From Eledone cirrhosa (taxonomy: Eukaryota), in NCBI GenBank assembly GCA_964016885.1, contig OZ024740.1, positions 305,784,001 to 305,848,000 on the forward strand: DNA of 64,000 nucleotides, read 5' to 3'. The position numbers and the translations under genes are program-made. Position 1 is the first letter of the stretch; every line of letters begins with the position of its first letter. The notes beneath the pieces are model-generated. The model searched no databases. It saw only the letters and a list, made by a program, of their open reading frames with translations, and had not been told where the DNA came from. Below are positions 7,996-10,102 of this stretch, piece by piece.

Positions 7996-9037
7996 AAATA
8001 AATTAATGTTTTGATATTTCACTGAAAAAATCTCTTCAACATTTTCTACTGAAAAAATCTTTTTCCTTTCTATTTTATATATTATATATATATATATATA
8101 TATATATACAAGTTAATATAAATTGATATATTATAAACACATAAGTGTTTGCATTGCAAAAGACTAAGTCAGCTAGAATGAAATAAACTAATTAAAATAA
8201 ATATAGTTTGTCTGTCTCGATATAAATCAATAAAAACAAGCTTATATTGGCAAAAGCCGTGATTCCTGGACACATTTAAATTTCAAAATCCAAACCGGCT
8301 CCGTAGATGAATTTGAACCTCAAAACTTAAATATATTTCGCAATGATGGTATAAAAAGTGAAATATTCAATCTTCTGTGCTTATCAACAGGGAATCCAGA
8401 GAAAATTAAAACATTTCACCTCCAAAAAATTTTGTAGGACTGATTAACCAGTACAAACGCACTAGGTACAACCAGCTATCTAGCTATCCCATACTCACAG
8501 TACTAGAAATAACAGCCGTTTATATGGGATTAAAAATATATATATATATGAAAGACGTAAAATAAGAGAATTATGAAAATTGACTTACTTACTAAAATTT
8601 TAGTAAGTCAATTTTCATAATTCTCTTATTTTACGTCTTTCATATAATTGTTCTGCATCCCCTTGCATTGAACTACAAAGTTACTAAGACAAAACCTATA
8701 TATTTGCTAGCATAGGTATGCATCTGTATACATATTGTTGGTAGATATACTAATTCTTTATAATTATCTCCAAATTATTTGTTGAGTAAAAATTTGCCGA
8801 AATTACTACTATGGTTCATGGTAGTGGTCAGGCCCCTGTCTTAATAGCATCCCACTCCTCACTGATTAACCTCAGTGTCACGTGATTGATTCTTTTGAAT
8901 TTGCTACTGACCAAGTAGGCAGTGAATTTTTTCAATGTCCTGGAATTTAGTCCCCGCTCGCTTTTTTCCATCCACTGAATTATTTTTATATGAGTTCCCT
9001 GTGTCCACGCATTGCCTAGGAACTTAGCTGAGAATAG

Positions 9038-9118
9038 ACTCCCTGATGACGTAAGGATTCTCTATGATTACGTTACGTAACCCCATTTATTCCCTTACAG
9101 AAATTAATTAGTTGGAGT
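9038..9118 (+). ncRNA. Hammerhead motif inside a partial-tandem element
   Basis: actcc-CTGATGA-c-gtaagg...ccttac-a-GAAA-tta-at-ta-GTT-ggagt. Confidence 0.65.
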
Positions 9119-10102
9119 GAAATTTTAGTAAGTAAGTCAATTTTCATAATTCTCTTATTTTATGTCTTTCATATAATTGTTCTGCATCCCCTTGTATTGA
9201 ACTACAAAGTTACTAAGACAAAACCTATATATTTGCTAGCATAGGTATGCATCTGTATACATATGTTGGTAGATATACTAATTCTCTCTCTCTCTCTCTC
9301 TCTCTCTCTCTCTCTCTCTCTCTCTCTCTCTCTCTCACTCTCTCTCTCTCTCTCTCTCTCTCTCTCTCTCTCTCTCTCTCTCTCTCTCTATATATATATA
9401 TATATATATATATATATATATATATATATACTGTATATATGTATATATATATATATATATATATATATATATACTGTATATATATATATATATATACTGT
9501 ATATATATATATATATATGTATGTATGTATGTATGTATGTATGTATGTATGTATGTATGTATGTATGTATGTATGTATGGATGTGTATATTGTTATAGTT
9601 GGGTAGGGCGTCATGAAGCCAATAGAAACACACGCACCTGTTGGTTTTCACTCCAATACATTACAAATTTCTTGTTGGTTAGTTTAATAACCGGAAGGTT
9701 GTTTATTTATTGTCAAAGCTCTTTCGTCACACATTCTGTGACCTCCACAGTGACTAATTTGTTATTTTGTGTCTCTCCTACGCCATCTTGTTTTTGTGTG
9801 TTTTCTGATAACTCTATGATAAAGTATTTAGCTTTAATAAAATGAATATTAAAACTCTACCTCGGTATTGAGTACCCTTTTCTCTCAGAACTAACCATAC
9901 ACTGATATATATATATATATATATATATATATATATATATATATATATATATATATATATATATATATATAGATAAATCTACCAAAAGTTTACGGTAGTG
10001 TCCAATCCGTATGAAGAACTCAATGTAATCCGGATATCATGGAAAGAAGAGATGCATTCAAAAATCACTTTCGGTGAAAGATAAACGGAATACAGAGTCA
10101 AG

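What the first reader, a model, noticed from the sequence alone, without database searches (positions are those of the whole stretch)
8545..9284. Complete mini-element: inverted cap plus 525-bp partial tandem whose repeat starts just after the HHR cut site
Seen: (TA)n, then a 50-bp inverted copy (8545-8595), repeat R (8596-8755), a unique body, an HHR (9038-9118, predicted cut after 9113), repeat R again (9121-9284) and (TC)n(TA)n. R begins about 7 nt downstream of the predicted cleavage site. Established: partial tandem pseudo-LTRs with an inverted 5' segment are typical of Penelope insertions. Inference: the template was an approximately 525-nt monomer or circle delimited by ribozyme cleavage and copied for slightly more than one round, as proposed for retrozymes.
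Basis: partly seen in the sequence, partly recalled or inferred. Interest (0 to 1): 0.72.

Follow-up and report, generated by a model that had tools for sequence, protein, structure and literature searches.

The report
Two-armed Penelope-type hammerhead retrozyme
This is one copy of an abundant non-coding repeat with a predicted self-cutting RNA motif; its insertions are two back-to-back arms ending at two different fixed sites, likely written by a Penelope-type jumping-gene enzyme from both sides of a DNA break, and that enzyme likely stutters to create short TC repeats as it starts.

Summary
The anatomy is real. It is one insertion of a non-coding ~528-nt hammerhead repeat: 1,327 exact copies of its 28-nt core, dispersed arms up to 3.3 units, and a >=45-kb array.

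The ribozyme cut does not set the boundaries. 191 of 219 passes run through it, although inner ends are 4.5-fold enriched at +5..+10, as in this copy. The fixed ends are two hairpin-marked outer sites, A (+62) and B (+177), that run into (TA)n. All 58 two-armed insertions with both ends intact pair A with B; 18 of 76 have a damaged end. This is the Penelope 'tail' (115 nt here), likely two primed starts at one break.

(TC)4-21 follows B in 13 of 16 TCTCTATA-type insertions versus 1 of 36 TCTTTATA-type (this copy). It never follows A or an internal B. That is likely enzyme stuttering at initiation.

A circular template fits but is unproven; no RNA data. New member of the non-LTR retrozymes. The scan noted the two-armed, two-site pattern before, in other families of this genome.

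The parts
8536..8549 (.). (TA)n target tract at the left end; its last letters are shared with site A of the element
   Evidence: sequence; 86 of 86 intact A ends run into TA
8545..8600 (-). Arm 1: 56 nt, unit positions +7 to +62; outer end at start site A
8595..8600 (.). Head-to-head junction: palindromic AAATTT shared by both arms (unit +7..+12)
   Evidence: junction overlaps of 2 nt or more in 37 of 72 junctions versus 17% by chance
8595..9285 (+). Arm 2: 691 nt, unit +7 through one full turn to start site B (1.3 units); contains R1, body, hammerhead, R2
8638..8673 (+). Internal (unused) site A, TTTCATATA ending 8646, followed by the bulged hairpin 8650-8673
8754..8786 (+). Internal (unused) site B, TTCTTTATA ending 8762, followed by the bulged hairpin 8768-8786; not expanded here
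9023..9132 (+). Type I hammerhead with outer stem I (9023-9033 with 9123-9132), long covarying stem II, palindromic stem III, predicted cut after GUU 9113; extra C9050 and extra A9099 flank stem II
   Evidence: cleavage not tested
9120..9285 (+). R2: second pass over unit +7..+172, site A passed at 9175, ends at start site B
9283..9389 (+). (TC)53 tract at the B end, likely written during initiation of reverse transcription
   Evidence: mechanism inferred
9389..9430 (.). (TA)n target tract at the right end

Best explanation
This is an insertion of a non-coding, ~528-nt hammerhead repeat made of two head-to-head arms whose outer ends lie at two different fixed sites (A and B, 115 nt apart) in (TA)n, likely produced when a Penelope-like reverse transcriptase/endonuclease primes from both ends of one DNA break on a retrozyme RNA that is probably circular or a uniform multimer. 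Shown: family size, fixed outer ends, strict A+B pairing, the shared hairpin 4-5 nt behind each site, scattered inner ends with microhomology, passes through the ribozyme site, equal similarity of all passes in an insertion, and (TC)n confined to terminal B sites. Inferred steps: (1) the RNA is transcribed, cut by dimeric hammerheads and ligated, or left as a multimer; (2) a PLE enzyme, likely a dimer, binds the A and B hairpins and cuts both strands of a (TA)n tract; (3) one 3' end pairs with UAUA at A and the other with UAUA at B; (4) at B the new AGA end can realign on UCU and repeat, giving (TC)n; (5) each cDNA runs a variable distance, often more than one turn, with a modest extra stop at the base of ribozyme stem I or at a cut 5' end; (6) the two cDNA ends are joined by microhomology. 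In this copy both arms stopped at +7 and joined through AAATTT.
For: 76 two-armed insertions: 58 A+B, 0 A+A, 0 B+B, 18 with a damaged end. The position-ordered sample alone gives 33 of 33. Either site can carry the longer arm (17 A, 16 B). The two inner ends are independent (6 of 76 within 12 nt, permutation mean 4.5, p 0.29). The strict hairpin pattern is found at both A and B in up to 100 loci, at only four other places in 1.09 Mb, and in 0 of 10 window shuffles. Passes within an insertion differ by a median 2.6%, against about 8-14% to the median other insertion in most cases. There is no in-register advantage between arms (3.27% versus 2.98%, p 0.35, 21 insertions, L129 left out). 18 private alleles are shared by all passes, 10 of them across both arms; within-insertion sharing is 17 times the between-insertion rate. 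(TC)>=4: 20 of 81 B ends, 0 of 86 A ends; 13 of 16 C173-type versus 1 of 36 T173-type insertions, and 0 of 19 internal (CT)2 sites. A second family at window 3662-3805 has the same hairpin; its internal TCTCTATA stays (TC)2-3 in 20 of 20 legible copies, while about 7 of 9 visible inverted arms end in (TC)n (read by eye). PMC11167929 (main text read) shows in vitro that a PLE cuts both strands of AT-rich DNA, starts at two internal sites that define the tail, is predicted to be a dimer, and does not need ribozyme cleavage. Three junctions with RT/GIY-YIG PLE sequence in the same orientation and without TA between (L024, L071, L100).
Against: No autonomous element sharing sequence with the unit was found: 0 of 30 loci of one PLE family; other copies of the L100 flank do not continue into the unit. 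The strict hairpin pattern was absent from the RT/GIY-YIG PLE loci held, so the chimeras may be nested insertions or deletions. Within-insertion divergence was below that to the nearest other insertion in only 27 of 60 cases. 13 private alleles are shared by only some passes. L129 has arms of two subfamilies (12.8% apart), so both arms need not come from one RNA. A uniform linear multimer fits as well as a circle does. The ribozyme has an extra A before GAAA and a GUU triplet (slow, recalled), so it may be weak or inactive. This copy has (TC)53 although its internal B is the T type. PMC11167929 saw no difference in start site between the two strands in vitro. Samples are biased to copies close to the query or with an intact 28-mer.
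Confidence: 0.72

Rival explanations
1. One reading: the template is a monomer or circle whose ribozyme-cut 5' end sets the start of the repeat, copied just over once, with an inverted cap.
For: Stop rate 4.5 times the average at +5..+10; 28 of 219 passes stop in +1..+30. Both arms of this copy stop at +7, as expected if they reached a cut end and lost 6 nt on joining through AAATTT (inference).
Against: 191 of 219 passes cross the site and only 2 arms stop at +1..+4. The fixed ends are A and B. The +7 peak is equally explained by a stall at the base of stem I or by the palindrome favouring joining.
Confidence: 0.12
2. The template is a linear read-through multimer from a tandem locus; no circle is involved.
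For: A >=45-kb array of 85 monomers exists. Only 6 of 167 arms exceed two units. Some alleles are shared by only some passes. PMC11167929 found unprocessed RNA to be the main substrate in vitro.
Against: Array monomers differ by about 5% from each other and by at least 4.1% (median 7.6%) from 89 dispersed insertions, so the part of the array read is not the source. No in-register signal. A young uniform tandem locus is not excluded.
Confidence: 0.35
3. One primed cDNA folds back or switches template to make the inverted arm, and the endonuclease then trims the second end, giving the tail (self-priming, PMC3846280; EN-mediated resolution, PMC8557442).
For: This copy has a perfect hairpin junction. 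22 of 72 junctions carry extra letters, some apparently templated from the other arm (seen by eye).
Against: Hairpin-type junctions are no more common than chance. Both ends carry the same RNA-like hairpin signal. (TC)n is added at B whether B is on the long or the short arm.
Confidence: 0.15
4. The (TC)n at B ends grew after insertion, by DNA replication slippage of (CT)2 next to a (TA)n tract, or was already in the target.
For: Compound (TC)n(TA)n tracts are common in this window. Only terminal sites touch a TA tract. This copy is T type internally.
Against: 0 of 86 A ends carry it. It tracks the template allele (p 1e-8), and tract length does not rise with age (rho -0.49, p 0.08, n 14). Two units are below the usual slippage threshold (recalled).
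Confidence: 0.3

Closest known systems
Metazoan non-LTR retrozymes (PMC7229834, passages read; bioRxiv 10.64898/2026.07.22.740005, parts 1-3 of 5 read)
   Same: Non-coding tandem unit with one type I hammerhead; monomers, short multimers and a long array; unit length within the reported 51-972 bp; proposed PLE mobilisation via circular RNA.
   Different: The parts read do not describe two-armed insertions, fixed A/B ends or start signals. Expression, cleavage and circles were shown for coral, mussel and axolotl, not here.
Endonuclease-bearing Penelope-like elements: pLTR, inverted 5' copy and tail (PMC8557442 passages and section 11; PMC3846280 passages; PMC11167929 main text)
   Same: Partial tandem, inverted 5'-truncated copy, tail at one end only, AT-rich or (TA)n target, two internal start sites downstream of a hammerhead.
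   Different: No ORF (longest ATG frame 30 and 47 aa). The tail is 115 nt, not 30-40. The one-end rule is strict (58 of 58). Starts use UAUA homology to the target, whereas the anole element starts without homology.
PLE minimal hammerheads (PMC4209133, parts 1-2 of 4 read)
   Same: Extra nucleotide before stem II, G10.1-C11.1 pair, long stem II, palindromic stem III suited to dimer cleavage.
   Different: A further extra A before GAAA (98% of copies), a GUU triplet (99-100%), and a ~50-nt stem II with a second covarying helix.
Template slippage at LINE 3' tails (UnaL2; PMC3747384, passage read) and telomerase repeat addition (recalled)
   Same: Short repeats added by realigning the new cDNA end on the RNA template at initiation.
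   Different: Here it would occur at an internal start site of a PLE substrate. Searches listed no paper showing this for PLEs.

Membership tests
Non-LTR retrozyme | Head-to-tail units each carrying a type I hammerhead | tested here: met
Non-LTR retrozyme | Non-coding, no LTR features | tested here: met
   longest ATG frames 30 and 47 aa in the circularised unit; no ORF continuous with any arm in repeated copies
Non-LTR retrozyme | At least two consecutive complete ribozymes in some loci | tested here: met
   L041, L012 and the C5 array; the window copy itself has only one
Non-LTR retrozyme | Self-cleavage of the RNA | not testable with these tools
   core conserved and stems covary, but extra A and GUU are atypical
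Non-LTR retrozyme | Expressed as linear and circular monomer RNA | not testable with these tools
   no RNA run available to test
Penelope-like element (autonomous) | ORF with PLE reverse transcriptase and GIY-YIG endonuclease | tested here: not met
   no ORF in the unit; RT/GIY-YIG PLEs exist in the genome but share no sequence with it
PLE-mobilised non-autonomous element | Partial tandem plus inverted 5'-truncated copy | tested here: met
   76 of 112 insertions are two-armed
PLE-mobilised non-autonomous element | Tail between two fixed start sites, present at one end only | tested here: met
   58 of 58 intact pairs; length 115 nt rather than 30-40
PLE-mobilised non-autonomous element | Terminal sequence shared with an autonomous partner | tested here: inconclusive
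   only 9-nt end motifs shared (TTTCATATA, TTCTTTATA) and three chimeric junctions; few PLE families were examined

The most novel reading that the evidence does not exclude
A Penelope-type reverse transcriptase dimer engages one circular retrozyme RNA at two hairpin-marked sites, one per DNA end, and performs telomerase-like repeat addition at initiation (realigning AGA on UCU up to about 50 times). It thereby writes (TC)n, and possibly part of the (TA)n, microsatellites into the genome. This would be repeat-addition activity in the sister group of telomerase and a source of compound microsatellites.
Probability: 0.4. Interest if true: 0.8.

Novelty: new member of a known kind. Interest (0 to 1): 0.52.

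Why it matters
How Penelope-like elements make inverted arms and a one-sided tail, and whether they mobilise retrozymes, are open questions in the papers read. This family gives countable footprints: strict one-site-per-end priming (58 of 58), a defined RNA start signal, and a one-letter template difference that predicts whether a TC tract appears. Each converts into a direct in vitro test. If the TC tracts are written by the enzyme, the closest relatives of telomerase can add repeats, and some compound microsatellites are born at insertion rather than grown later. The element class, the tail and the PLE link are already in print, and the scan has noted the two-armed pattern in other families here, so this single copy is not itself a surprise.

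Tried and rejected
Rfam scan of the window: no match.

This is no evidence on expression.

Autonomous partner by sequence. The 796-aa RT/GIY-YIG family beside L035 shares nothing with the unit. The L100 junction is a one-off. The L024 tail belongs to a PLE family unrelated in sequence. The family at window 3662-3805 showed no PLE protein match within 1.5 kb in 25 loci.

RNA-editing scars: no A>G excess (45 A>G versus 55 T>C, p 0.76).

C5 array as the master: rejected for the 45 kb read; its ends were not reached.

Empty-site test for whether (TA)n pre-exists: only one usable case (L139; short TA in two paralogues), inconclusive.

Hairpin-junction excess: none.

Script faults: one search had a faulty pattern, redone. 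The terminal-site lists hold false matches, so those counts were read by eye.

Dropped rows: duplicate views of one locus, one duplicated L039 insertion (still counted, removed from then on), arms cut by a locus edge, and the C5 array.

Literature searches found no description of PLE stuttering or of this family. The word 'cephalopod' was my guess and is not established. Supplements were not read; Fig. S2 of PMC11167929 and the closed preprint supplements may already show the one-site-per-arm rule.

Full report
Observation. The window reads (TA)n, a 56-nt inverted arm (8545-8600), a 691-nt direct arm (8595-9285), (TC)53 and (TA)n. The arms overlap in the palindrome AAATTT. The direct arm holds R1, a body, a type I hammerhead and R2. 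The period is 525 only because R1 lost 4 nt; the unit is about 528 nt. R begins 7 nt after the predicted cut at 9113/9114. Rfam does not see the motif.

Family. A search of the own genome (3.0 Gb) with the body gave 3,033 candidates, 40 scored, at 91-100% identity for full matches. A 28-nt core pattern has 1,327 exact matches and 0 for the reversed control. I analysed best-hit loci and 60 loci taken in positional order from the first 100 listed pattern matches: 112 insertions and 188 arms after the drops listed under Tried and rejected. Contig C5 holds a head-to-tail array of at least 45 kb and 85 monomers, absent 40-45 kb further out on each side. The unit has no ORF. One near-full monomer folds as a branched structure, z -5.9.

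Ribozyme. Core positions are 94-100% conserved across dispersed copies while loop II positions fall to 47-60%. In 20 hand-picked representatives, 8 pairs change on both sides, all in stem II and its extension; 0 of 500 shuffles reach this, with the tool's caveat on relatedness. It has the PLE hallmarks of PMC4209133 (parts 1-2 of 4 read): an extra base before stem II, G10.1-C11.1, and a palindromic stem III. It also has an unusual extra A before GAAA and a GUU triplet. The window copy carries C-to-U at 9104. Activity is untested.

What fixes the ends. With +1 the first base after the cut, outer ends fall at A (+62, TTTCATATA) or B (+177, TTCTTTATA): 167 of 188 arms. 86 of 86 A ends and 79 of 81 B ends run into TA. 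Of 76 two-armed insertions, 58 are A+B, none A+A or B+B, and 18 have a damaged end. Either site can carry the longer arm. Both sites are followed after 4-5 nt by the same bulged hairpin, YUC-N4-loop-N4'-UU-GAR, found at only four other places in 1.09 Mb. This is the PLE tail: PMC8557442 (passages) says it is often at one end only and 30-40 bp long, and PMC11167929 (main text) maps it between two internal start sites. Here it is 115 nt and strictly one-sided.

Inner ends are scattered and independent between the arms. 37 of 72 junctions overlap by 2 nt or more, against 17% by chance (BLAST extension may inflate this). 191 of 219 passes cross the cut site. The stop rate at +5..+10 is 4.5 times the average (13 events; 3.5 times in the ordered sample alone), but not raised at +1..+4. 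The window copy sits on this hot spot with both arms. A cut RNA end trimmed on joining, a stall at stem I, or the palindrome itself could cause it; I cannot separate these.

Template. Passes within an insertion differ by a median 2.6%, far less than the median other insertion, but less than the nearest other one in only 27 of 60 cases. Same-register passes of the two arms are no closer than off-register ones (3.27% versus 2.98%, 21 insertions, L129 excluded). 18 private alleles are shared by all passes, 13 by some, and 227 are single. This means a uniform template: a circle or a uniform multimer. The array part read is too heterogeneous and too distant to be the donor. L129 combines two subfamilies, so two RNAs can contribute. 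No editing signature was found.

The TC tract. (TC)>=4 follows 20 of 81 B ends and 0 of 86 A ends. It follows 13 of 16 insertions whose internal B reads TCTCTATA and 1 of 36 reading TCTTTATA; 0 of 19 internal (CT)2 sites are expanded; length does not rise with divergence. The one exception is this window's copy, where realignment would need a G-U wobble (inference). An unrelated family at window 3662-3805 repeats the pattern: the same hairpin, internal TCTCTATA unexpanded in 20 of 20 legible copies, terminal sites mostly followed by (TC)n(TA)n. I infer realignment of the new cDNA end on UCU at initiation. Slippage at LINE tails is known (PMC3747384, passage). I found no report for PLEs. Later DNA slippage beside the TA tract is not excluded.

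Mobiliser. PLEs with RT and C-terminal GIY-YIG are abundant, some with 796-aa open frames. The one at L035 has the Cx4CxxC linker that PMC8557442 assigns to Neptune/Nematis. Hydra-type CxCx5C linkers also occur (L010). None shares sequence with the unit. Neptune-type families do end at two sites with the same 9-nt motifs. One has a hammerhead with extra bases on both sides of stem II. In L024 a B arm is paired with an arm that ends in that family's own TTTTCATATA site. L071 and L100 are further joins.

Verdict. A new member of the non-LTR retrozymes (PMC7229834, passages; 10.64898/2026.07.22.740005, parts 1-3 of 5) with the PLE insertion footprint; not an autonomous PLE. The two-armed, two-site pattern was noted by the scan in other families of this genome; a sequence look-up found no note on this unit. 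The template-linked TC tract was not in the notes I saw and is the most novel part. Interest 0.52.

Noticed in passing
window 3662-3805: Fragment of a second abundant family (2,940 candidates, 83-90% identity) with the same start hairpin as site A and (TC)n(TA)n at its terminal sites; no PLE protein match within 1.5 kb.
   Followed up: partly
G000:C5:84,664,800-84,709,800 (L178, L073, L038, L074, L177): Head-to-tail satellite of this unit, at least 85 monomers about 5% apart, many with damaged ribozyme cores; ends not reached.
   Followed up: partly
window 12251, 32199, 32770, 56002 (+) and 63388 (-): Five copies of another minimal hammerhead family (CCTGATGA...GAAACAGTTCTAGTC).
   Followed up: no
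window 10103-10494: 185-nt inverted repeat, 94% complementary, with a longer left arm starting near 9972, set between (TA)n tracts; looks like another two-armed PLE-type insertion with a one-sided tail.
   Followed up: no
L024:1336-2670: Chimeric insertion: B arm, then unit 450 to 36, a PLE RT piece, and a PLE 3' end that begins about at that element's own predicted ribozyme cut.
   Followed up: partly
L184-L212 and L213-L232: Two Neptune-type PLE ends with U3-A8 hammerhead variants (UUGAAAA, UUGAUAA) and two fixed end sites each; L203 has a long (TC)n(TA)n at its first site.
   Followed up: partly
L170-L175: Young PLE family with 796-aa open RT/GIY-YIG frames, upstream coding-like sequence in another frame, and a long microsatellite-like 3' region.
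   Followed up: no
L067: The flanks on both sides of the element appear to be inverted copies of each other (same translated stretch on both strands).
   Followed up: no
L114:2271-4181: Insertion without long TA tracts, with what looks like a 9-nt target duplication (TGCAGTATA).
   Followed up: no
window 39844-46722: 74-nt satellite, 93 copies, 95% matches.
   Followed up: no
window 7825-7893: Short perfect palindrome (AGAGCTCAAGCCGTTTCGACGGCTATTTC and its inverse), related to a repeat also seen in L024.
   Followed up: no
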